The position numbers were made by a program, and so were the translations under genes. Source: a virus (Duplodnaviria; Heunggongvirae; Uroviricota; Caudoviricetes; Schitoviridae). From it: a stretch of DNA of 64,000 nucleotides. The notes below the pieces were generated by a model, which worked only from the letters and a program-made list of their open reading frames with translations, ran no database searches and was not told where the DNA came from. How positions within the stretch are numbered: the first letter of the stretch is position 1; each line of letters begins with the position of its first letter. Shown piece by piece: positions 6,001 through 37,790 of this stretch. The stretch lies in the IMG/VR virus record IMGVR_UViG_2228664000_000024, positions 12,205 through 76,204 of that record. One strand, written 5' to 3'.

Positions 6001-6779
6001 TTACCCAGTGATTTGCTGGCAGTGTCCAGAGCAGACTGCGCACGTTGCAGACGCTGGCGAACATTCTCACCACCACGTTGCTGAACAGGCATACCAGGGT
6101 ACTGAGGGATATAAATCTCAGTGTTAGAGAATTCATCAGCAGGACGATCCAGAAGCTGAGCATCGCCAGGGTATGCAGTCTGCTGACGTGCTACCTGGTC
6201 TACAGCCTGGATACGTTCGGCATTAGCACCCGGAGTACCGTTAAGAATATCCTGAGCCACCAGAGCATTACGTGCCACAGTGCTACGCTGTTCTGCCTGG
6301 TTCTGGACTTGCTCACGGTTGAAAGCCAGACGTTCAGCATCAGTAGTTCCATACAGTGCAGAGTTGGCATTGTCCAGATTGCCTTTGTTGGCAAGCTGTA
6401 AAGCAATACGAGCCAGAGAACTACCAAAACCACCGATAGCATTACTAACCTGAGCACCAGCTTTAACCAAAGCAGAGCCAGATTCTAAATCAGTAGTTGG
6501 GGTAAATTTCTGGAGGTCTTCAGCCATAGCTGATTGAACTTGTTCACGTCCTTTCGCCATATTGTCGAAACGTGCAATTTCGCCCGCTAAAGTAGGGAAC
6601 TGACCTTTCGCAGCGAAATCAGAAGTGATTCGCTGTGTAGCGTCGGCAACCTGGAGATCTTTAGTAGAAACAGGCTGCACAGGAGCAGCCTGGGGGACAG
6701 AAATAGCCGGGGTAGGATTAGTGAACTCGCCGTTGCTTAAAGCATTTAAAGCCTGGGTCAACAGAGAGTCGCGGGCCAT
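1..6779 (-). CDS. Giant virion-encapsidated RNA polymerase (N4 vRNAP-like), partial; C-terminus lies beyond the window start
   Basis: ATG at 6779 (reverse strand). By my manual translation the frame stays open to nt 1. T7-family motif B R-x3-K-x7-YG (GSRKKAKVLATPFNYGSGLD, about nt 1570-1640), a putative motif A (AIGGESDGVTNGPI) and a T/DxxGR-like SGLGRDE lie upstream of it. Position at the downstream end of the structural operon as in N4 gene 50. Confidence 0.75.
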   Translation of the reverse strand, partial: MARDSLLTQALNALSNGEFTNPTPAISVPQAAPVQPVSTKDLQVADATQRITSDFAAKGQFPTLAGEIARFDNMAKGREQVQSAMAEDLQKFTPTTDLESGSALVKAGAQVSNAIGGFGSSLARIALQLANKGNLDNANSALYGTTDAERLAFNREQVQNQAEQRSTVARNALVAQDILNGTPGANAERIQAVDQVARQQTAYPGDAQLLDRPADEFSNTEIYIPQYPGMPVQQRGGENVRQRLQRAQSALDTASKSLGNPNQGVDNEWGTDAWVNREQSQRLAQQLEEENKNLSIPGAILNTVGEYLQNPSLVVQSAAESLPYALGPIGIGAGTAGQAVQNQIDGIRGQADGQLPTDEQIADVSQWNALHSGLNFVENVVNARALSGLSNLAITAPLRRGGEALADSAIGQAASRAIAGSGVSRLANAAKSILGAEPVRELATTMAINGLTEAAQNQIETRNLLGDNRWDTEGNINAGVLGALSAGVMTGPSTIGAGVARSVDAARTATRERAEAANPQAAEARKAAEDAAKPFEDLTNPEHVDYNPQAAIRQQLNVVADANATPEVKAEAVNRAQTVRDNAEAELASVREEIGQIQQDNAMRAALTEKLAELDQYPDSPQKQAIVDQFTQRIADIDSRAYNEEQQNSLVERYQAATQNAERIRNAYSQFETAAGIREKVSPSEVEKQVETATNPDATQEQVDTAADHVVTHPMQYTPEQLRTLADDTTNRFSETQRDAIRALADARVAQNNLKSDLTVNQDIMQGGKGYRSLGDYTSQYADAIRSGNTTLAANLHDSLARFEQSHTQKAALAQQMMDNQQYGQIIRQGNQWVINPGAKLKGKAKTLNGALDIHAKSGGLVSRIQQEAEAIQATSRALDAMSQARPTATANATQPSSPAPTTTPATDATATVQAQPEPAAVESGATEQKQKNIDRPNRRTSDDLKTRTAKQQERIAPAETQTQQEQPNLATTNEVDPAPVSTTETDANVVSDQTTAVKSDENTKAEGSVSVLRPEGKSLETARTEELAKPFEQQNLVLTGFIQKVREGFVNPLVTVPDFMSGVISKADWSGRFTEVNRYLATPMDAAQKNFIGMFTQFHNKVAGDIDAAIKVKQGKTKTGNDLANFRYQDFVQYLVNENGQLDENTKTAMTASMFSWLAENGNNLIATRDDLASLFHIDSSEVSTELVNRYSEIGSSQRAVVQSLGQRAYQMLGFKVLPDVDPNRAGRMQQALGMYALHTMMKRGYLEQTTMSAREYADILVSGLEPDAAQTKLAEFSRDFLGGQPVNKSRVTFNFVRVPRKEVNGKLVPADVIGRITEANKGTKGIMSKLFSFDAAKVAPLTSKPGKFIQNTVGDFGQQVPSELAERLTKAQQQPYRINESVVNTMTKIAGMDEAALHHMMGVRTQAETPFMHDRDRIGQEAKNADVLRALENANEFISGLGRDELGQTQAIYMPLAVWSNNRVGVASNMLNPQGNKIHRIMVGMEAHQTDIPLNQAPMDASGNITEYGQYLLTVAQGMEEAPIKTPNGGDMPTVDKVTGATYLQGMQDYLNTPRVREAVQAMSRLINEDANAKDIATVKDMVAEFGMGPQSFQSLHALALEYMAREAGADNVRVAIGGESDGVTNGPILTNVLYGTADYDLLARGGLYTADAGVTNVPQYREKGGQDYYQLLGAAQNTFWNQMYPRPAGKATTQNEAFRRAIDYLSPGFGSRKKAKVLATPFNYGSGLDSLKRASARDAIDGIYSHIADVAKAYSQDKETGDMLRNRLDKAIQIVLRQGQSLGIKTPAFKGIGKTESLLSYELPRDVTAAIMQVEMATRGEASEAAIEQVAAQYIETRDTNTAITNAAYEVNKVLTDRVEANALVQAVRDGQVGSVNGVAVEGLSSNVKAKLNEQLRNSSAIVTSATGSISSNKLESGYVAAKANTSFDANNPATEVKGFFADAANPANTGLSQTKNNTFTSYTSGAQVKDKAAPGVSTSALIVQGTDAAISTRVISERPAQNFHDANLFGIKDMVEGARSQNKAMWDTVTGYDSQLANTEAMIRSFRGISENATEQNLTPSDWTNVAASLRQLAFKVGINRNFKDPVNPSVVLGRVVGDAYNREIAKLETLKGIEYVNQYGYEGGEYQVTAADRKALDKKIEKLRSQRDSAVAEAETLGTTLASQLTAGTTKQARANEKLDAAQRRQAVEEAASDSEPAIVSTQQKNALERFLMSHKDGVVKAKDLMDFTVKALASGKTDGSKIQTRMRTTYAEL

Positions 6780-24088: not shown

Positions 24089-24258
24089 CTCATTTAGGTA
24101 CGGATGCACTACTTACTACTCTGGCTGTTAGAAATCTGGGACTCCCCCCGGTGTCATCGCTGTAGAAAAAGAATTCTTACTCCTTACACAAATAAACTTA
24201 AGGCCATAGGCCATGCTGTGAGCAATGGTGCTCATCATACATGTATGGAGTAATACAA

Positions 24259-24655: not shown

Positions 24656-25139
24656 CACAAGTACACAACTACACAATCAACCTATGACAGTAAGGTGCGC
24701 TAAGCAGGTTCAAAACTTATGGCAATTTACTCGCGCTAGGTATGCCACCTGGAATTCATATACAGATATTCACTTATCGATTTTACTCATAACACTTATC
24801 GAAAAAATGAGTTAGTCAAAAGGGTTGACAGCAAGGTACAGTAAATACATAGACACTTATTACTTAACTTACTACTTCAATCTAACTTAGCTTTGTTTAC
24901 CTCTATCTTATCAACTACTATCTCTATACCTATACTTACCCTATACACTATCTCTATGTATACCTTACATATACCTATAACCTTATAAACACTATGTATA
25001 TAAGTATGGGTATCCTATCTATAACTAGTGAGTACATCGTAGGTACGTAGTACCGTAGATGTACGAACGGTAGATAGTTATATCTATGTCCATAGGACAT
25101 TAAGTGGAGTAATACACTTAACCAATCGGAGATATAACT
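24656..25139. repeat. About 480-bp non-coding AT-rich region with short direct repeats (ACTATCTCTAT x2; CGTAG iterons x3-4)
   Basis: No ORF of 60 aa or more. Pyrimidine-rich plus strand. Repeated ctat/atac/tacc units. CGTAG repeated at 8-14 bp spacing around 25036-25075. Confidence 0.5.
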
Positions 25140-26326: not shown

Positions 26327-26339
26327 TGTGCATAGCACA
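26327..26339 (+). promoter_or_regulatory. Conserved hairpin, class ATA (TGTGC-ata-GCACA)
   Basis: 5-bp stem, 3-nt loop; flanks match copies at 29787 and 30152. Confidence 0.4.
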
Positions 26340-27206: not shown

Positions 27207-27385
27207 TGAAATTCAAAGATATCCCTGAACAAGCACACTTCAGCTTAACTGAAGATGAGCGTATTGGGCTGGATATAACTTACATTAAATCCTACCAGAA
27301 TGCTGGTAGGTATAACGCAGTTAAACTAGGTAAGTTAACTGTACCAGTCCTACTCCAGCCTGATTTCGAAGTTACTCTAAAATAA
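27206..27385 (+). CDS. Small hypothetical protein (59 aa)
   Basis: Overlapping start; ends at a terminator. Confidence 0.4.
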   Translation: MKFKDIPEQAHFSLTEDERIGLDITYIKSYQNAGRYNAVKLGKLTVPVLLQPDFEVTLK

Positions 27386-27408
27386 GCCCTTCGGGGCTTA
27401 TCTTTTTT
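27385..27408 (+). terminator. Intrinsic terminator AGCCC-ttcg-GGGCT plus TTTTTT
   Basis: UUCG tetraloop plus U-tract. Confidence 0.75.
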
Positions 27409-27425
27409 AATGCACTCCGTGCATT
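27409..27425 (+). promoter_or_regulatory. Conserved hairpin, class GGA (AATGCAC-tcc-GTGCATT; GGA loop on the template strand); candidate vRNAP-type hairpin promoter
   Basis: 7-bp stem, 3-nt loop. Shares GCACTCCGTGCRTTG(N2-3)TGAGTT with the copy at 34016. Lies between a terminator and the next gene. Confidence 0.45.
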
Positions 27426-27454
27426 GTAATGAGTTAGTAACTTAGGAGTAACCA

Positions 27455-27742
27455 ATGAAAGAAATAACCTATTGGGTAATTAGACACATACCCACTAAAC
27501 GTATCCTTGCTACTGCTGACAGCGTAGGCAAGGGCAGAGGTAATACTCGTGTTGATATTCAAGACACAGGTTTACCTCGACTGTTTGAAACAGAGAGGCG
27601 AGCTAAATATTGTCTCGCTCGCTGGCTTGAAGGTAAATTCCATATGACCTGGGAAGATGGAATTGAAGTTAGCACTCCAGCTATTCCTCGTATAAAGGAG
27701 GATATGGAAATCATACCTGTTCAACTTAAGGTGATGGTATGA
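27455..27742 (+). CDS. Hypothetical protein (95 aa)
   Basis: RBS AGGAGT. Confidence 0.5.
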   Translation: MKEITYWVIRHIPTKRILATADSVGKGRGNTRVDIQDTGLPRLFETERRAKYCLARWLEGKFHMTWEDGIEVSTPAIPRIKEDMEIIPVQLKVMV

Positions 27743-28041
27743 AGACTATTAACTTATGTTATCAAACAGGTAAATACACTTTTATTCTCACACTTGATGA
27801 GGGTGCTATACATAACTTAAAAACCAGAAGATTAATGGGTATGCACAAGCATACAGGTAAGTGGCCTATGTTAATTATGGAGACTGACCGCATAGCGTTA
27901 TACCCGAATGATCTTCATCGTATGTATACCATCCCAGAAACTGGTATGCGTATTCACCTCAATGTACCTATTGCACCTGATGCAATGTGTTGGGTATGCC
28001 CTACAACTGATGAGCTTAATGCTCTTATCTATTTCGAGTAA
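27739..28041 (+). CDS. Hypothetical protein (100 aa)
   Basis: ATGA overlap. Confidence 0.5.
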   Translation: MKTINLCYQTGKYTFILTLDEGAIHNLKTRRLMGMHKHTGKWPMLIMETDRIALYPNDLHRMYTIPETGMRIHLNVPIAPDAMCWVCPTTDELNALIYFE

Positions 28042-28047
28042 ACAACT

Positions 28048-28227
28048 ATGGTTGATATCGAATATAAACTCATTAGAAATGAGAATAAGTCTTCCAAATA
28101 CCCGTGGGTAGTTATTAAGAGCTATCCAGGATTCTTTCACTATTTCTACTGTTCTGATAAACAAAAGAAAGATTTCCCTAACTTAGCTGACTTATATAAA
28201 GAGGCCCGTAAAAATGGCAAAGCGTAG
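28048..28227 (+). CDS. Small hypothetical protein (59 aa)
   Basis: ORF just below the track cutoff; tight packing. Confidence 0.35.
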   Translation: MVDIEYKLIRNENKSSKYPWVVIKSYPGFFHYFYCSDKQKKDFPNLADLYKEARKNGKA

Positions 28228-28498
28228 ACTGCGTGCATTCAATGCTACAGCATTGTATATCCACATGACCCCAGAGTTACTGAAGAATCTGAAGATTAAA
28301 CTTCAGGTGCTTAAGGCCCCTTATGTGGAAATGAAATTGCCTACATTCAGAAACCAGCATAAGAAATCAACCAAGCAAATAAAGGTTGGTGATGGCCTAT
28401 GGATCGAAGCTCAGCTTATGTATCCTGACCTCTGTAAGGCTGGTACATATCTGGAAGCTTATTGGCGCTTTAATCTGACCCGGAGGATACCCTTCTAA
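28214..28498 (+). CDS. Hypothetical basic protein (94 aa)
   Basis: ORF overlaps the upstream end by 14 nt. Confidence 0.4.
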   Translation: MAKRRLRAFNATALYIHMTPELLKNLKIKLQVLKAPYVEMKLPTFRNQHKKSTKQIKVGDGLWIEAQLMYPDLCKAGTYLEAYWRFNLTRRIPF

Positions 28499-28608
28499 AA
28501 CTACGGTTTGGGGCAAATCCTACCTTGATGAGCTTGTGTCATTTACTGAGGCAGTTACTCAAACTGAACTTAGTAGAAGCCAGAAACAATTAATGGGAGT
28601 TTTAACTC

Positions 28609-28920
28609 ATGGTAATAATCCGTGATGTGATTCGATATCATCCATCAGGTACTAAGTTAATAGCTGAAGCTAAAGTAACTGAAGAAGAGTTCAATAAGAT
28701 CAGAACTCTATTCCTGATTGGTAATAAAGAACCAGTGGAACTGGTGACCAGTATCTATTGGTATGACGGTGGTTATCCACCTAAGCCAGTGTATATGGTA
28801 TGTCCTCAAGATTGGCGTGGTCAGCTAATAGGGGATGACTATGTAGTCAATAACAAAGAACCGCGTAAGTGGTTATTTGAATATAAACCAGTAAAGGATA
28901 CTGGCGGGGCTGCTATATGA
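28609..28920 (+). CDS. Hypothetical protein (103 aa)
   Basis: RBS GGGAG. Confidence 0.5.
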   Translation: MVIIRDVIRYHPSGTKLIAEAKVTEEEFNKIRTLFLIGNKEPVELVTSIYWYDGGYPPKPVYMVCPQDWRGQLIGDDYVVNNKEPRKWLFEYKPVKDTGGAAI

Positions 28921-29210
28921 GAGTTGGTAACGCATCAATGGCAACGCCATCTAAGTTTTACACTAAATTAACTGAAGACGAGTTAATGAAACTTAAGACT
29001 AAAGCTTTACTTACTGGTGATTCATTTACCAATGATGACTACCAAAGTTTCCTTGTTACATTACCAACATGGACAAGCAAAGGTAAACCTGAAAAGTCTA
29101 ACTGCTTAAAGTTTCAGACTCGTTCTGTTCATCTCATTTATGTGGATGACAATTCATACTCAACCAAACCAGGAGTAATGGAAAAGTGGATAATCAGAAT
29201 ATACCATTAG
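28917..29210 (+). CDS. Hypothetical protein (97 aa)
   Basis: ATGA overlap. Confidence 0.45.
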   Translation: MRVGNASMATPSKFYTKLTEDELMKLKTKALLTGDSFTNDDYQSFLVTLPTWTSKGKPEKSNCLKFQTRSVHLIYVDDNSYSTKPGVMEKWIIRIYH

Positions 29211-29527
29211 ACGTTGTAGAGATATTACGTTGGGAAGCCACCACAAGGCAATTTGACCGTATAGGTTATGTGCTTCCAGATGTAATGGAAAACCTCAAAA
29301 CTCGTGTAATGCTTACACCCAATTTTACATGGACAGGTGATATCATTATTGATATTCGCATGTTCGAATTGGGGCCGGGTAGACTAGTCGGAGAACTCAT
29401 GTTCAAAGTAGATATACCGGGCATTAAATGTAAAACCATACTGCTCAGTGTCCGTTTAACCAAGCAAATGCTTCAGGGTAAGGAACCCTATGTTAAAACG
29501 GAGGCAACAATTAAAGGATTCGGTTAA
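29186..29527 (+). CDS. Hypothetical protein (113 aa; start uncertain, GTG at 29186 or a later ATG)
   Basis: ORF from the track; overlaps the upstream gene. Confidence 0.4.
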   Translation: MDNQNIPLDVVEILRWEATTRQFDRIGYVLPDVMENLKTRVMLTPNFTWTGDIIIDIRMFELGPGRLVGELMFKVDIPGIKCKTILLSVRLTKQMLQGKEPYVKTEATIKGFG

Positions 29528-29787
29528 TGGCTACAATAAAAAGAAAAGGCACTAATGTGTTTACTGCTACGTTTGATAGCTCACTATTAACCAATAACGG
29601 TGGATCTTTACTAATTGATTTGGAAATTAGTAAATGGGGTTCTAAAGCATTTAGTGATGGTTTTCTATTTAGTCGTTATCACTTTAAGTTCAACCTTGAG
29701 CAAGAGTTAACTTTGCAAGTAAAAACCAAACTTTTGTTAGGTGCAACAGTACGTATAACTGTACCTGCAACATACGAAGATTGGTAA
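29527..29787 (+). CDS. Hypothetical protein (86 aa)
   Basis: RBS AAGGA; TAATG overlap. Confidence 0.45.
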   Translation: MATIKRKGTNVFTATFDSSLLTNNGGSLLIDLEISKWGSKAFSDGFLFSRYHFKFNLEQELTLQVKTKLLLGATVRITVPATYEDW

Positions 29788-29803
29788 ACGTGCATAGCAC
29801 GTT
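29787..29803 (+). promoter_or_regulatory. Conserved hairpin, class ATA (AACGTGC-ata-GCACGTT)
   Basis: 7-bp stem, 3-nt loop. Abuts the upstream stop codon. Ends 2 nt before ATG 29806, which has no RBS. Confidence 0.45.
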
Positions 29804-29805
29804 AA

Positions 29806-30150
29806 ATGACTAATAATACTCTGGTTTCAGGGCTGCTGAAGCCAGGGTTCAACTCTAAGGATTGTTGTATGCCAACTATGAATATTGATCATGCTCAGAC
29901 TAATCTGCGCTGGTGTAAGCGTGCGTGGATGGACGGAGAAATGCGTGATCTGGCATTGTTCCTGTTCCACAAAGGTATGTCTCAATTAATTATGTCCGAC
30001 CTGGCTTTAGAGACTCAGGTTGAAGTCGCTGCCTCTATTCTGGGGCGTGAAGCATTCGAAGACCTCTCTGCGTTTAGTGAAGAGGTCAACGGCTGTCCTC
30101 TGCAATATGCTGCATGGCGTGACCGTGTTAGCTGCTTAATCATCTGTTAG
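29806..30150 (+). CDS. Hypothetical protein (114 aa), no recognizable SD
   Basis: ORF from the track; start 2 nt after the hairpin. Confidence 0.4.
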   Translation: MTNNTLVSGLLKPGFNSKDCCMPTMNIDHAQTNLRWCKRAWMDGEMRDLALFLFHKGMSQLIMSDLALETQVEVAASILGREAFEDLSAFSEEVNGCPLQYAAWRDRVSCLIIC

Positions 30151-30151
30151 A

Positions 30152-30168
30152 AACGCGCATAGCGCGTT
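30152..30168 (+). promoter_or_regulatory. Conserved hairpin, class ATA (AACGCGC-ata-GCGCGTT)
   Basis: 7-bp stem, 3-nt loop; begins 1 nt after stop 30150; flank GTTATGTGCAA. Confidence 0.45.
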
Positions 30169-30240
30169 ATGTGCAATTAAGGGCATGTTAAGCCCACATT
30201 CTGTTATTAATCATCTACTCATCTTTAAGAGGTATATATC

Positions 30241-30525
30241 ATGGCTTTCACTCGTACTCCTTCTGCAAACAACGCTCCTGCTGACAACGCTGCTAAGAAC
30301 AAAGTTGGCGGCTATCTGAACATCAACATTCTGACCCGTGACGGTTCCCGTAAACGTCTGGGCGGCTCTGGTATTGCTCTGCGTGAAAACCACCCGGTTG
30401 AAGGCGCGATTCTGGCTCTGATTCGTTCAAATCCAGAGAAGCTGCAAGACCTGGTTGGCCGTATTGAGCTGACCTTTGGCGAAGCTCACAAAGAAGGCGA
30501 ATTCGTCGATCTGGGCATCGAATAA
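30241..30525 (+). CDS. Small abundantly expressed protein (94 aa), monocistronic unit; candidate early DNA-binding/activator protein
   Basis: Strong RBS TAAGAGGT. Bracketed by the hairpin at 30152 and a terminator at 30535. Gly/Arg-rich. Confidence 0.5.
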   Translation: MAFTRTPSANNAPADNAAKNKVGGYLNINILTRDGSRKRLGGSGIALRENHPVEGAILALIRSNPEKLQDLVGRIELTFGEAHKEGEFVDLGIE

Positions 30526-30534
30526 TCCAACCAA

Positions 30535-30558
30535 GCCAACCTTCGGGTTGGCTTTTTT
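30535..30558 (+). terminator. Intrinsic terminator GCCAACC-ttcg-GGTTGGC plus TTTTTT
   Basis: UUCG tetraloop plus U-tract. Confidence 0.8.
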
Positions 30559-30570
30559 ATTGAGGTATGT

Positions 30571-30735
30571 ATGGAAAAGATCTCTGTAACACCAACCAAA
30601 TGGGCAGTAGTCGTAGGTTACGTTGAGTATCACGCTGGGCGTCAGTTCCCGTGGTTAGGGCGTCATGGCTGTGCCATCAGCTTCTTCGTTACCGAGGATG
30701 AAGCTACTCAGTTCGCTATCACAGGTAATCTGTAA
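30571..30735 (+). CDS. Small hypothetical protein (54 aa)
   Basis: RBS GAGGT. Confidence 0.35.
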   Translation: MEKISVTPTKWAVVVGYVEYHAGRQFPWLGRHGCAISFFVTEDEATQFAITGNL

Positions 30736-31022
30736 TGGGTGACGAATACAACAGTGAGTATCCACAGATACCACCTACGCATTTACGCTGCAAAGTAGAT
30801 AAATGTGTAGCCCTCAAACTCGATCCACGATTCGACAAAATCGTTCGTACCAAGATGCTGTTAGGCATCACTAAAAGTATCAAATTACGGGGCCATATCC
30901 CGTATAGAACTGCATCAATCAAACCAGAACGTATTACATCAGAGCTTGAATTCTCTGGCTTCAAGGCCAGTGCAGAATACAGAGGCTCTGGTACATGGGT
31001 GATTAACGTAAGGAGAAAGTAA
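30735..31022 (+). CDS. Hypothetical protein (95 aa)
   Basis: TAATG overlap on both sides. Confidence 0.45.
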   Translation: MGDEYNSEYPQIPPTHLRCKVDKCVALKLDPRFDKIVRTKMLLGITKSIKLRGHIPYRTASIKPERITSELEFSGFKASAEYRGSGTWVINVRRK

Positions 31023-32002
31023 TGCACCATTGGCTCGCTAAGGAAGAATTGCAACTCATCAATGAACGTCAGTTCAACCGTAAGCATATCGATGGCTATA
31101 TCCGTGCAGAACTCTTCGAAGGCCAGGAGAACCTCTGGCCTGAAGTAGCACAGGGCGTAGAGCTATTGAATCAATGGATGGATCAGCAGTTCTATGACAG
31201 CAAAGCTGTTCGTATCAGTCACTTAAGACAACTGGACTTAGAGAAGCTCGTTGTCGAGATATTCGTAGGTGTGTGCTACGTACAGGAGGAAACACCACTG
31301 GTCAACGTCATTGGTCAACTGGCTTCACGTATCGGCTTTGACGATAAGCGTGACAGCATTCAGACCATTGCCGAAGTGCTGGCTGTGCTGTGTGAAACTG
31401 ATGTTTATGACATCAGCAAACCACACCCTAAAGCCAGTCTGTATATCAAATCGAACATCACCTTTGATGAGAGATTAAGCAATTTCATTGCATACTCATG
31501 CTATTTACCGCCGCTGGTTTGTGAACCTCGTGAACTGGTAAATAACCGTTCAACCGCTTATTACACGCACGAATCAGATAGCCTGATTCTGGGTGGAGGA
31601 TTTAACCATCATGACGGAAACATCTGCCTTGATGTACTTAATTCACGCAATCGTGTTCCTCTTTCCCTGGACGTGCAATTCCTTTGCACAGTGGAAGAAG
31701 AACCAACTCACGATCTCGATGTTATTGACTCTGACGAGGATCTCAGTGACTGGCAAATAGCCGATATGGTACGCAAACAGAAGCAAAACTGGGCGCGTTA
31801 CAAAGAGCAGTCGTACTACTTCTACAGCCTGATGGTGAACCAGGGTAATAGGTTCTACATCAGCAACAAGGTAGACAAACGCGGGCGCATGTACGCCTGT
31901 GGCTACCACATCACCCCACAGGGAACCAGCTTCAAGAAAGCGATGATTAACTTTGCCGATCAAGAGCAAGTAACAGGTGTCCCTGCACAATTCAGAAAAT
32001 GA
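31022..32002 (+). CDS. Phage RNA polymerase II, N-terminal-type subunit (T7-like RNAP promoter-binding/DxxGR region)
   Basis: DKRGRMYACGYHITPQGT matches T7 RNAP DWRGRVYA...NPQGN. Followed by the palm-domain subunit. Confidence 0.7.
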   Translation: MHHWLAKEELQLINERQFNRKHIDGYIRAELFEGQENLWPEVAQGVELLNQWMDQQFYDSKAVRISHLRQLDLEKLVVEIFVGVCYVQEETPLVNVIGQLASRIGFDDKRDSIQTIAEVLAVLCETDVYDISKPHPKASLYIKSNITFDERLSNFIAYSCYLPPLVCEPRELVNNRSTAYYTHESDSLILGGGFNHHDGNICLDVLNSRNRVPLSLDVQFLCTVEEEPTHDLDVIDSDEDLSDWQIADMVRKQKQNWARYKEQSYYFYSLMVNQGNRFYISNKVDKRGRMYACGYHITPQGTSFKKAMINFADQEQVTGVPAQFRK

Positions 32003-32014
32003 GAGGAATAACTT

Positions 32015-33289
32015 ATGCAACATACTATCAATTTCGGTACTGGCTTCCAGAGATTCTCCGGCTGGGAATATCTCTGCATCGACGTAGCCAACCATTATGG
32101 GCTGGATAAAGAACTATTCAATACCCGCATTCAGTGGGTGTATGACCACATCGATAACCTGGAAACATTGGCAGATGATGCCGATGAACCAGTGCTGTTC
32201 AAGAAAGCTGTTATGACCCTTCGCCGTGCTCAGCACGGTGAGGCTGTAGGCCATGTAGTTCACTTCGATGCCTGCTGCTCTGGTATCCAGATTATGTCTG
32301 CACTTACTGGCTGTGAAGCTGGTGCATACAACACTGGTATGGTTGACCCGGATCAGCGTATGGATGCGTACAGCAACACCACTGGCGAGATGAACAAGAT
32401 TCTGCAAACCAAAGGGTTAGCAAGTATCACTGTTCCTCGTGGTGATGTTAAACAAGCCGTAATGACTTCAGGCTATGGCTCCAAAGCTGTACCTAAGAAG
32501 GTATTCGGTGAAGGTGAGATGCTGGACGTGTTCTACGATGCAGCTATGACCATCGCTCCGGGCGCATTTAAGCTCATGGATGAACTTCTGGAATCATGGC
32601 GTCCATTTGCCTTAGAACACCGTCTGGTGGCTCCTGATGGCTTCACAGCCGTCATTAAGGTAATGGAAACCAAGGAAACCAGAATTGAAGTGGATGAACT
32701 CGACCATGCAACGTTTACGCTGCAATACCGTGTGAACGAAGGTACAGAGCGTGGACGTGCTAACGTAGCGAATACCATTCACTTCTGTGATGCGTATCTC
32801 CTGCGTGGCATTGAGCGTCGTTGCAACTACGATCCAGTGGTTGTAAGCAATGCTCAGGAAGTCCTGCGTATGGCTGCTCTGGGCTATTCCTGCGGTAATA
32901 CGCAGATGGCTTGCACTGACGAACTCAGTGAACTACTGCCACTGTGCATTCGCTCTCACATCGCTGATGTGGCGCTTCTGCCATTGCTGCGTTGGGATAA
33001 CGTCATGTGTCTGCCTAAGTGGATGGTGCATAAGCTGCTGTCTATCGTTAACGATATGCTGTCTTACAAGCCATTCCCTATTCTGACTGTCCATGATGCC
33101 TTCGGTGCTCATGCCAATAACTGTGACCTCACTCGTTACTGGTACAAAGAGATCATGGCCGATATGGCTGATTCCAACCTGCTGGAAATGCTGATGTGCC
33201 AGCTTTACCAAATCACTGACGGTAAGTATGAAAAGCTCAGCCCAAATCTGGGAGATAAAATCAGGAACTCAAACTATGCGCTTTCTTAA
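32015..33289 (+). CDS. Phage RNA polymerase II, catalytic (palm) subunit, T7-like
   Basis: Motif A HFDACCSGIQIMSAL (T7 DGSCSGIQHFSAM). Motif B KQAVMTSGYGS. Motif C HDAFGAH (T7 HDSFGTH). Confidence 0.75.
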   Translation: MQHTINFGTGFQRFSGWEYLCIDVANHYGLDKELFNTRIQWVYDHIDNLETLADDADEPVLFKKAVMTLRRAQHGEAVGHVVHFDACCSGIQIMSALTGCEAGAYNTGMVDPDQRMDAYSNTTGEMNKILQTKGLASITVPRGDVKQAVMTSGYGSKAVPKKVFGEGEMLDVFYDAAMTIAPGAFKLMDELLESWRPFALEHRLVAPDGFTAVIKVMETKETRIEVDELDHATFTLQYRVNEGTERGRANVANTIHFCDAYLLRGIERRCNYDPVVVSNAQEVLRMAALGYSCGNTQMACTDELSELLPLCIRSHIADVALLPLLRWDNVMCLPKWMVHKLLSIVNDMLSYKPFPILTVHDAFGAHANNCDLTRYWYKEIMADMADSNLLEMLMCQLYQITDGKYEKLSPNLGDKIRNSNYALS

Positions 33290-33473
33290 GATCTGGTGGC
33301 ACAAACGTCAAGCCAGAAAAGCACGTATAGCATTCTACAACCTTACCTATATGTACCAGTGCGGGATAGATGTAATCAACACTGTGACAGGGGGTGAATA
33401 CAACCGTCTGGTTAATGTCTACAACAAGCACATTCTCTGGCTTAAAGAGCATGACCCAAAGTATCCGAAATAA
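33276..33473 (+). CDS. Small hypothetical protein (65 aa)
   Basis: RBS AGGAA; overlaps the RNAP gene end. Confidence 0.35.
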   Translation: MRFLKIWWHKRQARKARIAFYNLTYMYQCGIDVINTVTGGEYNRLVNVYNKHILWLKEHDPKYPK

Positions 33474-33479
33474 CCACCA

Positions 33480-33502
33480 GCCACCCTTCGGGGTGGCTTT
33501 TT
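33480..33502 (+). terminator. Intrinsic terminator GCCACCC-ttcg-GGGTGGC plus TTTTT
   Basis: UUCG tetraloop plus U-tract. Confidence 0.8.
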
Positions 33503-33516
33503 CATTTGGAGATCCT

Positions 33517-33771
33517 ATGAAACTACTGCACTCGCTGCCTTACACAAAGGACGGAGTAGTCCATCCAGTAGGCAGAATGACTGTACCTAAATCACTGGTT
33601 TCAACTATGAAAGCCAGTCTGTTATGTGGTATGCCAGAGGTTGAACTCAGACTTACGCCTGACATTATTAAATCTCAAGGTATGCCAGTTCACTTACCTA
33701 CGTTGGGCGTAGTTGGTGTAGCTGTATACGCTGATGGTGACGACCGGGTAGTGAAACTCTACCAGGAGTAA
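33517..33771 (+). CDS. Hypothetical protein (84 aa)
   Basis: RBS GGAGA. Confidence 0.45.
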   Translation: MKLLHSLPYTKDGVVHPVGRMTVPKSLVSTMKASLLCGMPEVELRLTPDIIKSQGMPVHLPTLGVVGVAVYADGDDRVVKLYQE

Positions 33772-33773
33772 CT

Positions 33774-34016
33774 ATGGCTGCATTCGAAGGCTACCAGGTC
33801 TTCCGAGATAAGATGACCGCTGTTTACACAACAAAAGAGATGTACGATCAGTTCATGACTAAGAAGCTCTTAGGCGTGAAAGTGATAAATCTTAGAGGAA
33901 CCTTAATGGAAGATGCTACGCATGTAATCGACTTCAAAGAACATGGAGTGATTGAAGCCAAAGCATCTTACTTTGACTTTGACAGAACCCAACGTATTAC
34001 GCTTAAACTTAAATGA
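33774..34016 (+). CDS. Hypothetical protein (80 aa)
   Basis: RBS AGGAGT. Confidence 0.45.
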   Translation: MAAFEGYQVFRDKMTAVYTTKEMYDQFMTKKLLGVKVINLRGTLMEDATHVIDFKEHGVIEAKASYFDFDRTQRITLKLK

Positions 34017-34030
34017 CGCACTCCGTGCGT
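34016..34030 (+). promoter_or_regulatory. Conserved hairpin, class GGA (ACGCAC-tcc-GTGCGT)
   Basis: 6-bp stem, 3-nt loop. Same flanking consensus as 27409. Followed by a second hairpin GACGC-tttc-GCGTC (34041-34054) and a terminator. Confidence 0.45.
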
Positions 34031-34083
34031 TGAGTGAGTTGACGCTTTCGCGTCTGTATAACTTAATTTTCTCATTTCTGAAG

Positions 34084-34116
34084 GGCTATCCTATTTATTG
34101 GGATAGCCTATTTTTT
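34084..34116 (+). terminator. Intrinsic terminator GGCTATCC-(9 nt)-GGATAGCC plus TTTTTT
   Basis: 8-bp stem plus U-tract; likely end of the early transcription unit. Confidence 0.7.
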
Positions 34117-34260
34117 ATACTTCAGAGACTTCTAAGACAGTCATGTACATAGTTCTAGAACTTCTATAGAAGTTTTATACCTATATGCTAGACAGTCAAA
34201 AATCGACACTTTTGACTTTACCCTACCTAAACCCTAAATCCACTTATCTATAGGCTAAAA

Positions 34261-34497
34261 ATGAACGCAATAACCTTCATTGCTATGGTCGGTGCTGTCT
34301 GGTTCGGACTCGGCTGGACACTCGGATCTGGCGCTAAAAAACGACTGATGCACCGTCTTGAAAATACACCTGACGCACTTGTAGCTTTAAGTCTAGCCTT
34401 ACAAGTAAACCAGATTAACCAAGCACGAAAGGTATATCTCCTTAAGTGCATAGTCTGTTTAATCGTAGGTGTATTGGCACATCTGGTCGTGAGGTAG
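34261..34497 (+). CDS. Small membrane protein (78 aa, 2 TM)
   Basis: Two hydrophobic helices. Confidence 0.45.
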   Translation: MNAITFIAMVGAVWFGLGWTLGSGAKKRLMHRLENTPDALVALSLALQVNQINQARKVYLLKCIVCLIVGVLAHLVVR

Positions 34498-34499
34498 TT

Positions 34500-34727
34500 A
34501 TGGACTACAAACTGTTTACTTACGTGTTAGCTGTAATGGCTTTTCTCTGCTTCCTAAATGCAGCGGATTACTGGGAAGATTATCGCCGTTATTACTGGCA
34601 ATTCACTTCCCAGGCTCAAGCCAGGTATGGGAGACACATCCGTCGCAATGCAGTGCTCTGTGTACTGTGGGGTGTCTTTTGGGCAGCTATTGCAGCTATT
34701 TGTTGGTTTATTCCACAAGGAACTTAA
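34500..34727 (+). CDS. Small membrane protein (75 aa, 2 TM)
   Basis: RBS GAGGT; hydrophobic helices. Confidence 0.45.
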   Translation: MDYKLFTYVLAVMAFLCFLNAADYWEDYRRYYWQFTSQAQARYGRHIRRNAVLCVLWGVFWAAIAAICWFIPQGT

Positions 34728-34728
34728 C

Positions 34729-35346
34729 ATGCAACTTACTAAAGATATGGAACTGAAAGTTCGCCGTGCATTAATGCAATACAGTGAATATCAGGTAGCC
34801 AATATGTATGGCCTTCGTGTAGGCACGGTACGTGCTATCAAGGTGCAGATGGAAGAAGAACGTCAAGTTCCGATTAACTTCTCTGCCGGTAGATCTCAAC
34901 TGGATCTGTACCGTGAACTAACGGCTACTGGCCGTAAGCAGGAAACTCCCCTGGAAATGGGATTACGTCTTCATGAGGATCTGTTTAAGTCCCATAACCT
35001 TGCGTTAGACAAGGTGCATAAAGCAGCCTCTGATGCGGATTACGCTGGTTTAGAAGGCCGTGTAATGGCTGGCTTCTTCACGCCTAACGGCTTGCCTACG
35101 CCAGCCTTCTGGGGCTTTATAAGCCAGTATGTGAAGAAGTCCGGGCATACCATGCTGGACATTCTGCACGACAATGAAATCTACGCTCCAGAGCAATTAG
35201 AACGTGCTCTGGATATCGACTCACAAATTCAAGACATGACACAGGCTCAGCGTATTGCTTTGCTACGTCGTCTTTCTGCTGCGGTATATTCAGATGAATT
35301 CAAAGATCCAACCGATCCCGGTTCCGATGTTCAGGACAGCGAATAA
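34729..35346 (+). CDS. Hypothetical protein with helix-turn-helix-like segment (205 aa)
   Basis: RBS AAGGAA; EYQVANMYGLRVGTVRAIK is HTH-like. Confidence 0.4.
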   Translation: MQLTKDMELKVRRALMQYSEYQVANMYGLRVGTVRAIKVQMEEERQVPINFSAGRSQLDLYRELTATGRKQETPLEMGLRLHEDLFKSHNLALDKVHKAASDADYAGLEGRVMAGFFTPNGLPTPAFWGFISQYVKKSGHTMLDILHDNEIYAPEQLERALDIDSQIQDMTQAQRIALLRRLSAAVYSDEFKDPTDPGSDVQDSE

Positions 35347-35353
35347 CCTCAAT

Positions 35354-35632
35354 GAGGCTATGTCCGAAATCAAGCAGCATACGTATCCGTATGATCCCAA
35401 TACTATTCACTCACTGGTGATGATGTACCACAACACACTACTGAGCGAACTCAAAAAAGAAGGCCGTCTGGTTAACATTTATATCGTTAAACCAGGTGAT
35501 AGCCTTTACTCGATTGCAGAAACCTACACAGGTATCGGAGAGAACTGGAAGATCCTGGCTGAAATGAATGATGTGGATCCACCAGATCTCATCTATCCAA
35601 ACCAGGTATTGAAGATTCCTGCTGATTGGTAG
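35354..35632 (+). CDS. LysM domain protein (about 92 aa; alternative start at 35321)
   Basis: C-terminal YIVKPGDSLYSIAETYTG...NQVLKIP matches the LysM pattern. Confidence 0.6.
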   Translation, partial: EAMSEIKQHTYPYDPNTIHSLVMMYHNTLLSELKKEGRLVNIYIVKPGDSLYSIAETYTGIGENWKILAEMNDVDPPDLIYPNQVLKIPADW

Positions 35633-35646
35633 TGGCCTCCGGCCAC
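35632..35646 (+). promoter_or_regulatory. Hairpin GTGGCC-tcc-GGCCAC (class GGA-like loop, divergent flanks)
   Basis: 6-bp GC stem, TCC loop, directly after the stop codon. Confidence 0.3.
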
Positions 35647-35693
35647 CATGTGGCTTGCTGATCTCACCACTTCGTGAGTAAGCGGAGAAAACT

Positions 35694-37391: not shown

Positions 37392-37790
37392 ATGAAAAAA
37401 CTTATTGTTGTTGCTGTCGCTGTTCTTTCTCTGTCTGGGTGCGTCGTCAACACGCCTGCACCTGCTCCGCAGGTTACGGCTGTTGCCTCCGCCCCGGCTA
37501 AGTCGGGTGAAGTGTGGTGCTTTGCTGATGCCAAGTTTGGCAAAGAGGCTGAGCAGCATTTAGGGCTGGTTTTCCTCACTGACAACGGTAACAGCTTCTC
37601 CGTGCGTAACCGAGAAGGTAAGACGGTGGTAGTCAGTCCGGTGCTGAATATCCCGGCGTCCAATTCCATGACAGCAACCGACTCTAAAGGTCTGCTGTAC
37701 TCCAAAGGTACTCAGCGTTTCGCTGGTTTCTATGGGGTATTCCGTAATTACACAGGTGGTCAAGACTATCTGACTTTCAATTGCCGTTAA
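37392..37790 (+). CDS. Lipoprotein (132 aa), lipobox LSGC
   Basis: Signal peptide MKKLIVVAVAVLSLSGC; RBS AGGAA. Confidence 0.55.
   Translation: MKKLIVVAVAVLSLSGCVVNTPAPAPQVTAVASAPAKSGEVWCFADAKFGKEAEQHLGLVFLTDNGNSFSVRNREGKTVVVSPVLNIPASNSMTATDSKGLLYSKGTQRFAGFYGVFRNYTGGQDYLTFNCR

What the first reader, a model, noticed from the sequence alone, without database searches (positions are those of the whole stretch)
27409..35646. Family of conserved GC-stem hairpins with 3-nt TCC loops (GGA on the template strand): candidate N4 vRNAP-type hairpin promoters
Two copies, 27409-27425 (AATGCAC-tcc-GTGCATT) and 34016-34030 (ACGCAC-tcc-GTGCGT), share the extended consensus GCACTCCGTGCRTTG(N2-3)TGAGTT. A third, 35632-35646 (GTGGCC-tcc-GGCCAC), has the same loop with different flanks. 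On the minus (template) strand the loop reads GGA with a central G. As I recall, N4 virion RNAP promoters are template-strand hairpins with a 5-7 bp stem and a 3-nt loop whose central base is a G at -11. The window also contains the giant vRNAP gene, and these hairpins sit in the presumptive early region upstream of plus-strand genes. Copy 1 lies between an intrinsic terminator and the next ORF, which suits a promoter.
Basis: partly seen in the sequence, partly recalled or inferred. Interest (0 to 1): 0.7.

Follow-up and report, generated by a model that had tools for sequence, protein, structure and literature searches.

The report
Second-class hairpin promoters in N4-like phage
The three small GC-stem/TCC-loop hairpins are real, conserved single-stranded-DNA hairpin promoters of an N4-like phage, but they are the minor of two hairpin classes here and are probably read by the phage's second RNA polymerase, not by the injected virion polymerase.

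Summary
The window is about 64 kb of an N4-like (Schitoviridae, Cbunavirus-like) phage, 93% identical to Enterobacter phage vB_Ecl_SABI. The three TCC-loop hairpins lie exactly where reported. They are enriched (5 observed, 0.23 expected). At syntenic sites in up to nine relatives the stems change by compensatory substitutions, while the loop and C:G closing pair never change. They match TCC hairpins in phage LUZ7 that sit 13 nt upstream of mapped transcription starts (PE7, PE8, PM2-4). They are therefore very probably promoters (about 0.85).

The vRNAP assignment is doubtful. A second, larger family with an ATA loop (24202, 25086, 26327, 29787, 30152) holds the positions of LUZ7's strong early vRNAP promoters: about 90 nt from the genome end, in front of the Drc gene, all upstream of the RNAPII genes. 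The TCC class lies mostly downstream of the RNAPII genes. It includes a fourth member (63115-63130) at the position of a validated LUZ7 middle promoter.

Best reading: ATA is the vRNAP class and TCC the RNAPII+Drc class (about 0.5); TCC as vRNAP about 0.3. This is a new member of a known kind. Copy 2 drives a conserved non-coding unit of about 80 nt.

The parts
27409..27425 (+). TCC hairpin copy 1, AATGCAC-TCC-GTGCATT, written on the non-template strand; the functional hairpin is on the - (template) strand with loop 5'-GGA-3'. It lies 3.3 kb from the inferred genome left end.
   Evidence: Template-strand DNA dG is -5.5 kcal/mol, z = -4.1. Syntenic orthologs have a different stem (TATGGCC-TCC-GGCCATA) in CB1, Possum, Nepra, phiA41 and EK8, and an identical stem in SABI.
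27382..27408 (+). Intrinsic terminator directly abutting copy 1 (ATAAGCCC-TTCG-GGGCTTAT plus a T-run).
   Evidence: The same T-run/hairpin juxtaposition occurs in all relatives ('tcttattttt' directly before the hairpin).
27426..27435 (+). Predicted initiation region of copy 1, GTAATGAGTT. The TSS is predicted at 27428 by the N4 rule (10th nt after the loop) or at 27431 by the LUZ7 rule (G of ATG|AGTT, 13th nt).
   Evidence: ATGAGTT is conserved after copy 1 in 6 of the 7 genomes (Nepra has ATGAGCT). LUZ7 PE7 reads ATTG|AGTTGG with the mapped TSS at that G.
34016..34030 (+). TCC hairpin copy 2, ACGCAC-TCC-GTGCGT. It overlaps the stop codon of ORF 33774-34016 and lies 9.9 kb from the left end, downstream of the RNAPII genes.
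   Evidence: dG is -5.8 kcal/mol. It is present at the syntenic site in 9 of 9 genomes with two alternative stems, ACGCAC or CTGGCC.
34031..34116 (+). Conserved non-coding unit downstream of copy 2. It contains the start region TGAGTGAGTT (TSS about 34034-34036), a small hairpin GACGC-TTTC-GCGTC (34041-34054), the near-invariant TGYATAACTTARTTTT, and an intrinsic terminator (34083-34116).
   Evidence: Alignment A2: the terminator stem covaries between clades. No ORF is present, and there is no Rfam hit. LUZ7 PE7 is likewise followed by a terminator before orf23.
35632..35646 (+). TCC hairpin copy 3, GTGGCC-TCC-GGCCAC. It overlaps the stop of the LysM-like ORF ending at 35632 and lies 48 nt upstream of ORF 35694-35930. 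The predicted TSS is at 35650-35652 (GTG).
   Evidence: dG is -6.2 kcal/mol. Orthologs with different stems: SABI AATGCCC, Kc283 and Nepra ATGCCC, EK8 AGTGCCC. It was not found in CB1, Possum, phiA41 or MIF8.
63115..63130 (+). Fourth intergenic TCC-type hairpin, GGGCAG-TTCC-CTGCCC (4-nt loop), 33 nt upstream of thyX (ATG at 63163), the first gene of the second rightward block. It lies 39 kb from the left end.
   Evidence: It is invariant in six genomes (A4). It is the positional equivalent of LUZ7 PM2 (a middle promoter validated by primer extension) and of LIT1 35492.
37460..37474 (+). Intragenic TCC hairpin ACCTGC-TCC-GCAGGT inside the lipoprotein ORF. Its status is unresolved.
   Evidence: It lies within a near-invariant 108-nt 5' end of the gene, and EK8 has loop TAC (A3).
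24202..24212 (+). ATA-class hairpin GGCC-ATA-GGCC, about 90 nt from the inferred genome left end (about 24114), in front of membrane-protein ORF 24241-24531. It is the candidate first vRNAP promoter.
   Evidence: It is orthologous to CB1 nt 83-95 inside the annotated terminal repeat. It has the same stem and position as LUZ7 PE1, GGCC-TTC-GGCC, the strongest early TSS.
25086..25100 (+). ATA-class hairpin ATGTCC-ATA-GGACAT, 40 nt upstream of ORF 25140 (the first ORF after the long AT-rich non-coding stretch).
   Evidence: The orthologs have different stems: CB1 ATAGTGC and SABI TACGC; CB1 shares the window's downstream AAGTGGAGTAATACACTTAA, SABI's downstream sequence differs. The CB1 copy is annotated as an N4-early-like promoter in GenBank.
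26327..26339 (+). ATA-class hairpin TGTGC-ATA-GCACA (intergenic).
29787..29803 (+). ATA-class hairpin AACGTGC-ATA-GCACGTT (intergenic).
   Evidence: Orthologs occur in all relatives with compensatory stem changes.
30152..30168 (+). ATA-class hairpin AACGCGC-ATA-GCGCGTT, upstream of the Drc-like ORF.
   Evidence: The CB1 ortholog at 6745 is annotated as a promoter. It is the equivalent of LUZ7 PE4/PE5 in front of Drc.
30241..30525 (+). Drc-like ssDNA-binding RNAPII cofactor gene (94 aa), followed by a terminator at 30533-30560.
   Evidence: BLASTP to LUZ7 Drc gives E = 4e-05. PMC7145618 assigns Drc homologs to CB1-like phages.
31022..33289 (+). RNAPII genes, RNAP1 (31022-32002) and RNAP2 (32015-33289).
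   Evidence: annotations. RNAP2 is 43% identical to LUZ7 and 33% to N4.
1..6779 (-). Virion RNA polymerase gene, N-terminal 2259 codons only (it runs off the window).
   Evidence: It is 25% identical to LUZ7 vRNAP over 1680 aa. It has 649 homologs, mostly 3,300-4,000 aa among the 150 listed.

Best explanation
The TCC-loop hairpins are promoters of the kind peculiar to N4-like phages. Negative supercoiling extrudes a short GC-rich hairpin on the template (minus) strand, with loop 5'-GGA-3' closed by a C:G pair. A phage single-subunit RNA polymerase then binds the hairpin and starts at a purine a fixed 10-13 nt downstream, within (A/G)TG|AGTT-like sequence.

The phage has two such promoter classes that differ essentially only in the loop. 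The ATA class has five copies. They run from about 90 nt inside the genome end up to the Drc gene, and all lie upstream of the RNAPII genes. This is the set used by the injected virion RNAP. The TCC class comprises copy 1 at 27409, copy 2 at 34016, copy 3 at 35632 and a TTCC variant at 63115. It is most likely used by the phage-encoded two-subunit RNAPII together with its ssDNA-binding cofactor Drc. On this reading the TCC class acts at the early-to-middle switch and drives genes downstream of the RNAPII operon and the second rightward (thyX/replication) block.

Shown here: the hairpins exist, are enriched, are structurally conserved with covariation, and are orthologous in form and position to TSS-associated hairpins of LUZ7. 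Inferred: that they fire in this phage, the exact TSS, and which polymerase uses them.
For: (1) Existence and enrichment.

(2) Covariation: on a loop-anchored alignment of 17 distinct hairpins, 96.6% of cells pair. Six of 7 pairs change on both sides. The covariation score is 0.88, against 0.23 in shuffles (0 of 500 reach it) and at most 0.11 for slid partners. The loop and closing pair are invariant.

(3) Synteny: copy 2 is found in 9 of 9 genomes with two different stems. Copy 1 is in 7 of 7. Copy 3 is in 5 of 9, with four stems.

(4) Experimental calibration in LUZ7 (bioRxiv 10.1101/2022.03.18.484859, Table S2): 5 of 7 TCC hairpins, and all 4 that are C:G-closed, lie 13-14 nt upstream of mapped TSSs. 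PE7 (GCGTTC-TCC-GAACGC tccattG|AGTTGG) sits directly after RNAP2 and is followed by a terminator, like copy 2.

(5) Polymerase assignment. PM2-PM4, classed 'middle', are TCC hairpins. PE7 and PE8 share their architecture (stems of at least 6 bp, TSS at the 13th nt) and are weak at 5 min (197 and 1111 RPM, against 3,900-46,000 for the TTC/TAC class). In LUZ7 and LIT1 every TCC hairpin lies downstream of the RNAPII genes. The window's 63115 hairpin sits at the PM2 position, 39 kb from the left end. CB1-like phages share the Drc-type RNAPII system with LUZ7 and LIT1 (Drc-like ORF).

(6) The ATA class holds the positions of the strong LUZ7 early promoters. These include the one in the terminal repeat, which has the same GGCC stem, and the one before Drc (CB1 GGCCA-TGTCATGGCAAT against LUZ7 PE5 GCCTG-TGTAATGGCAAC). 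R-T-G is fixed at nt 10-12 after the loop.

(7) The class I loop differs between genera (TTC/TAC in LUZ7 and LIT1, ATA here), while TCC is constant. This parallels vRNAP being far more diverged (25% identity) than RNAP2 (43%). ATA and TCC share no loop base on identical GGCC stems, which argues for two readers.
Against: In N4 itself the TCC hairpins P2 and P3 are proven vRNAP promoters. The LUZ7 authors class PE7 and PE8 as early. Copy 1 sits inside the early region, upstream of the RNAPII genes and directly after a terminator, where a restart promoter for vRNAP would make sense. In this clade the TCC and ATA classes share much the same start motif and spacing (R-T/C-G at nt 10-12), which would fit a single enzyme. 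No biochemical demonstration exists that any RNAPII-Drc complex recognises a hairpin. No transcript data exist for this phage or any Cbunavirus. Few TCC hairpins were found within the 36-54 kb replication block.
Confidence: 0.5

Rival explanations
1. One reading: the TCC hairpins are virion-RNAP (early) promoters, a second loop class read by the same injected enzyme that reads the ATA hairpins. This would parallel N4 vRNAP, which reads both TTC (P1) and TCC (P2, P3) loops.
For: The C-TCC-G core is identical to N4 P2 and P3, which are proven vRNAP promoters. In N4 the only C:G-closed TCC hairpins in the whole genome are those promoters. LUZ7 PE7 and PE8 were detected in the 5-min sample and classed early. 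Copy 1 lies in the early region just after a terminator. A purine sits at the 10th nt after the loop, and the R-T/C-G spacing matches the ATA class. Hairpin stability is like that of N4 P2 and P3.
Against: The template loops GGA and TAT share no base, yet N4 vRNAP makes base-specific contacts to -10G and -11G. N4's -8G is absent. The class I loop changed between genera while TCC did not. TCC hairpins in LUZ7 and LIT1 are all downstream of RNAPII, and three are middle-class, at 35-66 kb. A TCC-type hairpin lies 39 kb from the left end in front of thyX. PE7 and PE8 are 1-2 orders of magnitude weaker at 5 min than most of the TTC/TAC class (PE8 is about 3.5-fold below PE3).
Confidence: 0.3
2. The hairpins act at the RNA level, as processing (RNase III/E) sites, 3'-end stabilisers or weak terminators of read-through transcripts, rather than as DNA promoters.
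For: All lie at gene ends or in intergenic spacers on the transcribed strand, so upstream transcripts would contain them. Copies 2 and 3 overlap stop codons. The minus-strand reading of copy 2 was picked up by the loose terminator scan.
Against: No U-run follows them on the + strand. 3-nt loops with 6-7 bp stems are poor RNase III substrates. Only a DNA-level or polymerase-level reader explains an invariant loop plus closing pair with free stems and a fixed-distance purine start motif. In LUZ7 the equivalent hairpins lie upstream of primary (cap-enriched) 5' ends, not at 3' ends. Real terminators with T-runs stand next to copies 1 and 2.
Confidence: 0.07
3. The hairpins are chance palindromes, or binding sites for a DNA-binding protein (repressor, origin or packaging factor), unrelated to transcription initiation.
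For: Short palindromes are common: 120 perfect hairpins with stems of at least 5 bp and 3-nt loops occur in the window. Two TCC hairpins (37460, 38883) lie inside ORFs and may be incidental.
Against: Enrichment is about 20-fold over shuffles, with strand bias and clustering. Stems covary, which a sequence-specific dsDNA-binding protein would not allow. The elements are orthologous to mapped promoters.
Confidence: 0.05

Closest known systems
Coliphage N4 early promoters P2 and P3 (vRNAP hairpin promoters; Glucksmann 1992, Dai & Rothman-Denes 1998, Gleghorn 2008, reviewed in PMC4496689)
   Same: A 6-7 bp stem and a 3-nt loop reading TCC on the non-template strand (GGA on the template strand). 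The C:G closing pair, a purine 10 nt after the loop, an intergenic position on the rightward strand, and comparable ssDNA stability.
   Different: The N4 -8G contact base is A or C here. The T-rich spacer and GG start of N4 (TTTTGG) are replaced by (A/G)TG|AGTT-type sequence. N4 has no TCC hairpin downstream of RNAPII, whereas here 3 of 4 are downstream. This phage uses Drc, not gp2, and has a separate ATA-loop class at the N4 P1-equivalent positions.
Pseudomonas phage LUZ7 promoters PE7, PE8 and PM1-PM4 (ONT-cappable-seq; PMC9163698 and bioRxiv 10.1101/2022.03.18.484859, Table S2)
   Same: A TCC loop (or a 4-nt loop containing TCC) and GC-rich stems of at least 6 bp. One lies directly after RNAP2 and is followed by a short terminated unit (PE7, like copy 2). 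One lies at the head of the second rightward block (PM2, like 63115). The TG|AGTT start motif and the Drc-type RNAPII system are shared.
   Different: This is a different genus and host. Copy 1 lies upstream of the RNAPII genes, which no LUZ7 or LIT1 TCC hairpin does. The start motif sits 1 nt closer in copies 2 and 3. Timing and polymerase are unmeasured here.
LUZ7 and LIT1 strong early hairpin promoters (PE1, PE3-PE5; loops TTC/TAC), with the N4-early-like 'promoter' features annotated in the Pectobacterium phage CB1 GenBank record
   Same: These are the counterparts of the window's ATA-loop family, not of the TCC hairpins. They share position (terminal repeat, before Drc), 4-7 bp stems, R-T-G at nt 10-12, and near-identical downstream sequence.
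   Different: The loop is ATA (template TAT) rather than TTC/TAC (template GAA/GTA). It therefore lacks the 5'G...3'A sheared pair thought to stabilise N4-type loops.

Membership tests
N4-type vRNAP hairpin promoter | Template-strand hairpin with a 5-7 bp stem and a 3-nt loop. | tested here: met
   Stems are 7, 6 and 6 bp with a 3-nt loop. The predicted MFE structure is the hairpin, at -5.5 to -6.2 kcal/mol.
N4-type vRNAP hairpin promoter | Template loop 5'-G-purine-A-3' with a central purine at -11 and a C(-9):G(-13) closing pair. | tested here: met
   The template loop is GGA, closed by C:G, in all three copies and in every ortholog. N4 reference.
N4-type vRNAP hairpin promoter | -8G on the template strand (contact of specificity-loop residue R904). 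| tested here: not met
   The non-template -8 base is T in copies 1 and 2 (template A) and G in copy 3 (template C). LUZ7 PE7 and PE8 also lack it.
N4-type vRNAP hairpin promoter | Location in the leftmost approximately 10% of the genome, upstream of early genes including the RNAPII genes. | tested here: inconclusive
   With the left end at about 24114, copy 1 is at 3.3 kb (4%). Copies 2 and 3 are at 9.9 and 11.5 kb (13-15%) and lie downstream of the RNAPII genes. The 63115 member is at 39 kb.
N4-type vRNAP hairpin promoter | Transcribed by virion RNAP (rifampicin-resistant, independent of protein synthesis, active on ssDNA in vitro). | not testable with these tools
   No transcript data or biochemistry exist for this phage. 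An attempt to map N4 contact residues K114, R119, W129, D901 and R904 onto this vRNAP failed, because only N4 mini-vRNAP residues 327-876 align reliably.
LUZ7-type TCC hairpin promoter (PE7/PE8/PM class; proposed RNAPII-Drc class) | A TCC loop (or a 4-nt loop containing TCC) on a GC-rich stem of at least 6 bp. | tested here: met
LUZ7-type TCC hairpin promoter (PE7/PE8/PM class; proposed RNAPII-Drc class) | G start about 13 nt after the loop, preceded by T (..TG|). | tested here: inconclusive
   The motif is present: copy 1 has ATG| at nt 11-13, copies 2 and 3 have GTG| at nt 10-12, and 63115 has ATG| at nt 12-14. Actual TSSs are unmeasured.
LUZ7-type TCC hairpin promoter (PE7/PE8/PM class; proposed RNAPII-Drc class) | The genome encodes split RNAPII plus Drc (not gp2). 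| tested here: met
   RNAP1 and RNAP2 lie at 31022-33289. A Drc-like ORF lies at 30241-30525. The literature assigns Drc to CB1-like phages.
LUZ7-type TCC hairpin promoter (PE7/PE8/PM class; proposed RNAPII-Drc class) | Located downstream of the RNAPII genes or at the head of middle-gene blocks. | tested here: inconclusive
   Met for copy 2, copy 3 and 63115. Not met for copy 1, which is upstream of RNAPII.

The most novel reading that the evidence does not exclude
Drc-type schitoviruses use a loop-coded, two-polymerase hairpin promoter system. On interchangeable GC stems (GGCC stems occur in both classes), the 3-nt loop alone routes a promoter to the injected vRNAP or to RNAPII+Drc. The vRNAP loop is genus-specific: ATA here, TTC/TAC in LUZ7 and LIT1. 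The RNAPII+Drc loop is TCC, invariant from Pseudomonas to enterobacterial phages. The first TCC promoter after the RNAPII operon makes a conserved terminated non-coding RNA (about 80 nt here, about 45 nt in LUZ7) that could gate the early-to-middle switch.
Probability: 0.35. Interest if true: 0.6.

Novelty: new member of a known kind. Interest (0 to 1): 0.4.

Why it matters
Hairpin promoters are the hallmark of N4-like phage transcription, but they have been mapped experimentally only in N4 and LUZ7. This locus shows that the TCC-loop hairpin is conserved, with covariation, across distant schitovirus genera. It also shows that a Cbunavirus-like phage carries two cleanly separable hairpin classes that differ only in the loop. 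That gives a simple, testable handle on an open question raised by the LUZ7 work: whether the split RNAPII, helped by Drc, really recognises hairpin promoters, and how it is kept apart from vRNAP. A loop swap between ATA and TCC on the same stem would address it. In practice it gives a rule for annotating promoters in Cbunavirus and Efbeekayvirus genomes, where current annotations are ad hoc. It also flags a conserved small transcription unit after the RNAPII genes.

Tried and rejected
(1) Residue-level test of vRNAP loop specificity. phmmer against PDB found nothing. BLASTP to N4 gp50 aligned only 330 aa at 24%. The first homolog search returned no hits, probably swamped by low-complexity words. 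The exhaustive HMMER search gave 150 homologs but none from N4's subfamily. A profile built from 117 domain sequences aligned only N4 mini-vRNAP 327-876, so K114, R119, W129, D901 and R904 could not be mapped. I abandoned this line.

(2) Published CB1 supplementary promoter predictions (ACCGG-TAT-CCGGT and others). They share no motif with either family and were not used. The CB1 GenBank features do coincide with ATA hairpins.

(3) Rfam search of 24.0-36.5 kb at E <= 1 gave nothing.

(4) Sigma-70 promoters are depleted in the early region (11 found, 32.5 expected), so host-RNAP promoters do not explain these sites.

(5) The intragenic TCC hairpin at 37460 as a fifth member. It cannot be separated from the general conservation of the gene's first 108 nt. 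The one at 38883 has a G:C closing pair and lies inside an ORF, and I treated it as incidental.

(6) ATA hairpins at 2521, 4879 and 54442 have CG-ATA-CG or GT-ATA-AC cores and lie inside ORFs. I treated them as incidental.

(7) Literature searches found no other N4-like TSS maps and no RNAPII-hairpin biochemistry.

Full report
WHAT THE WINDOW IS. The 9 kb around the finding is 93% identical to Enterobacter phage vB_Ecl_SABI. It is 75-80% identical, in the RNA polymerase genes, to Cbunavirus phages (Pectobacterium CB1, Nepra, phiA41 and Possum, Kosakonia Kc283, Escherichia EK8) and to Erwinia phage MIF8. All of these are N4-like podoviruses (Schitoviridae). The split middle polymerase genes RNAP1 and RNAP2 lie at 31022-32002 and 32015-33289. 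The giant virion RNAP gene is present only in part: its first 2259 codons run from 6779 down to the window's left edge on the minus strand. That is why no giant ORF appears in the ORF list. CB1's first nucleotides, at the start of an annotated terminal repeat, align to window position 24114. The physical left end of the genome therefore lies there, and the rightward early genes follow.

THE OBSERVATION. A scan for perfect hairpins with 3-nt loops finds five TCC-loop hairpins with stems of at least 6 bp on the + strand, all between 27.4 and 38.9 kb. Dinucleotide shuffles give a mean of 0.23 and a maximum of 3 in 300, and the - strand has one. Copy 1 abuts the T-run of a strong terminator (27382-27408) and precedes ORF 27455. 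Copies 2 and 3 overlap the stop codons of the preceding ORFs, and both lie downstream of the RNAPII genes.

ARE THEY CONSERVED STRUCTURES? Yes. I oriented the early regions of eight relatives and scanned them.
- Copy 2's site carries a TCC hairpin in 9 of 9 genomes, with two unrelated stems (ACGCAC or CTGGCC).
- Copy 1's site carries one in 7 of 7, with stems AATGCAC or TATGGCC.
- Copy 3's site carries one in 5 of 9, with stems GTGGCC, AATGCCC, ATGCCC or AGTGCCC.
I built a loop-anchored alignment of 17 distinct hairpins, including LUZ7 PE7 and PE8 and N4 P2 and P3. On it, 96.6% of cells pair and 6 of 7 pairs change on both sides. The covariation score is 0.88, against 0.23 in shuffles (0 of 500 reach it) and at most 0.11 for slid partners. 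The loop TCC and the closing C:G pair never vary. One caveat applies: I picked the members with a hairpin scan. The independent evidence is that syntenic sites keep the hairpin while the stem sequence changes. The predicted ssDNA stability of the template-strand hairpins is -5.5 to -6.2 kcal/mol. Reference values are N4 P2 at -5.2, N4 P3 at -7.2 and LUZ7 PE7 at -7.1.

COMPARISON WITH PROVEN PROMOTERS. The N4 literature (PMC4496689) defines the vRNAP promoter on the template strand. It has -8G and -9C, then the loop -10G, -11G, -12A, with a C:G closing pair, a 5-7 bp stem, and the start 8 nt beyond -8. In the N4 genome, on the non-template strand, these read P1 GTTGC-TTC-GCAAC-ttatGG, P2 AAGAAGC-TCC-GCTTCTT-ttGG and P3 AAGCTGC-TCC-GCAGCTT-ttGG. 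They are the only C:G-closed TCC hairpins in all 70 kb. The window's hairpins share the loop, the closing pair, the stem length and a purine at the 10th nt after the loop. They do not share -8G.

The closest experimental system is Pseudomonas phage LUZ7, whose TSSs were mapped genome-wide. Table S2 of the preprint, checked against the genome, shows two hairpin classes.
- Strong early promoters: PE1, PE3, PE4 and PE5. They have loops TTC or TAC and 4-5 bp stems, and the TSS is the 11th-12th nt after the loop. Strengths are 3,900-46,000 RPM.
- TCC-loop promoters with GC-rich stems of at least 6 bp and the TSS at the 13th nt. PE7 and PE8 lie just after the RNAPII genes, are classed early and are weak (197 and 1111 RPM). 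PM2-PM4 are classed middle.
Five of the seven TCC hairpins in LUZ7, and all four that are C:G-closed, coincide with a mapped TSS. I therefore put the probability that the window's TCC hairpins are promoters at about 0.85.

The early region holds a second intergenic hairpin family with loop ATA and core [G/C]C-ATA-G[C/G]. Its members are at 24202, 25086, 26327, 29787 and 30152. It is as enriched as the TCC family. It is conserved at syntenic sites with compensatory stem changes. In almost every copy in nine genomes it is followed by R-T-G at exactly nt 10-12 after the loop, whatever the stem length. Its positions are those of LUZ7's strong early promoters.
- One lies about 90 nt from the genome end inside the terminal repeat. 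It has the same GGCC stem as LUZ7 PE1 and differs only in the loop.
- One lies in front of the Drc-like gene. CB1 reads GGCCA-TGTCATGGCAAT, and LUZ7 PE5 reads GCCTG-TGTAATGGCAAC.
- All copies lie upstream of the RNAPII genes.
The CB1 GenBank record already labels three of these as N4-early-like promoters. The first promoter to enter the cell must be read by the injected polymerase. The ATA class is therefore the best candidate for the vRNAP promoter set.

WHICH POLYMERASE READS THE TCC CLASS? This cannot be settled by computation. The evidence leans towards RNAPII with Drc.
(i) CB1-like phages share the Drc-type middle-transcription system with LUZ7 and LIT1, not N4's gp2 system (PMC7145618). 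The window has a Drc-like ORF at 30241-30525.
(ii) LUZ7's middle promoters PM2-PM4 are TCC hairpins, and PE7 and PE8 share their architecture rather than that of the strong early class.
(iii) In LUZ7 and LIT1 every TCC hairpin lies downstream of the RNAPII genes, whereas in gp2-type N4 none does.
(iv) A fourth TCC-type hairpin, GGGCAG-TTCC-CTGCCC at 63115-63130, heads the second rightward block in front of thyX. It lies 39 kb from the left end, at the position of the primer-extension-validated middle promoter PM2, and is invariant in six genomes.
(v) The class I loop changed between genera (TTC/TAC to ATA) while TCC stayed fixed. This parallels 25% identity for vRNAP against 43% for RNAP2.
(vi) On identical GGCC stems, the template loops TAT and GGA share no base. 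That is hard to reconcile with one loop-reading pocket.

Against this reading: N4 vRNAP does read TCC hairpins, PE7 and PE8 are formally early, and copy 1 sits in the early region after a terminator. In addition, both classes here share nearly the same start motif and spacing. I put RNAPII+Drc at about 0.5, vRNAP at about 0.3, and other roles at about 0.1-0.15.

An attempt to decide by mapping N4's loop-contact residues onto this vRNAP failed, because the relevant segments do not align reliably.

MECHANISM PROPOSED. Gyrase-driven negative supercoiling extrudes the template-strand hairpin. An ssDNA-binding protein stabilises the open state: host SSB for vRNAP, as in N4, and Drc for RNAPII, as proposed for LUZ7. 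The polymerase reads the loop and closing pair and starts at a purine a fixed distance downstream. The steps shown here are the sequence features and their conservation. Everything about extrusion, binding and timing is inferred from N4 and LUZ7.

NOVELTY. Hairpin promoters of this form are known in N4 and LUZ7, so this is a new member of a known kind. The modestly new elements are as follows. A Cbunavirus-like phage carries two loop-defined classes. The TCC class is conserved across genera. Copy 2 heads a conserved terminated non-coding unit.

Noticed in passing
window 34031-34116 (and 34117-34260): Downstream of TCC copy 2 lies a conserved non-coding unit. It contains the hairpin GACGC-TTTC-GCGTC (34041-34054) and the near-invariant TGYATAACTTARTTTT. 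It ends in an intrinsic terminator (34083-34116) whose stem covaries between clades. About 140 nt of AT-rich spacer with semi-conserved motifs follow before ORF 34261. The predicted product is an RNA of about 80 nt with no Rfam match. LUZ7 PE7 has an analogous promoter-terminator unit.
   Followed up: partly
window 24202-24212, 25086-25100, 26327-26339, 29787-29803, 30152-30168: A second intergenic hairpin family with an ATA loop and R-T-G fixed at nt 10-12 after the loop. It is orthologous in position to LUZ7's strong early vRNAP promoters, and its template loop (TAT) lacks the G...A pair of N4-type loops.
   Followed up: yes
window ~24114 and 24650-25140: The inferred physical left end of the genome is at about 24114, where CB1 nt 1 (TACTACTCTGGCTGTTA) aligns. 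A CTGG..CCCCCCGGTG motif nearby is shared with the first about 50 nt of LUZ7. A 490-nt AT-rich non-coding stretch with many short direct repeats (for example ACTATCTCTAT twice and TATACCTATA twice) follows the first gene and its terminator. It may be the end of the terminal repeat, or origin-like sequence.
   Followed up: partly
window 24246-24257 and 25105-25116: An identical 12-mer, TGGAGTAATACA, covering the ribosome-binding site, lies at different distances (34 nt and 5 nt) downstream of the first two ATA hairpins. This suggests duplicated promoter-leader cassettes.
   Followed up: no
window 18621-19061: A cluster of four tRNA genes (Asn-GTT, Asp-GTC, Tyr-GTA, Gln-TTG) on the + strand between late-gene blocks, matching the SABI annotation.
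   Followed up: partly
window 37392-37500: The first 108 nt of the lipoprotein gene, including an intragenic TCC hairpin at 37460-37474, are nearly invariant at nucleotide level across genomes whose remaining gene sequence is only about 60-70% identical. EK8 alone changes the loop to TAC. This could be a recombination module or a nucleotide-level constraint such as an internal promoter.
   Followed up: partly
window 23000-40000: Sigma-70-like promoter matches are depleted in the early and middle region (11 found, 32.5 +/- 6.2 expected in shuffles). This is consistent with avoidance of host RNAP promoters on the rightward strand.
   Followed up: no
GenBank PQ898399.1 (Enterobacter phage SonariX), hits H2 and H21: This record is 248.7 kb long, yet it contains sequence 93-95% identical to this ~76-kb-class N4-like genome. 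It may be a concatenated or chimeric assembly.
   Followed up: no
L022 (Klebsiella phage pKP-BM327-1.2, Efbeekayvirus) ~485-500: At the site of the thyX-upstream TTCC hairpin, this more distant phage has GGGCAGCATAGCCC, a different hairpin whose loop contains ATA. This hints that the loop class at this site can switch between genera.
   Followed up: no
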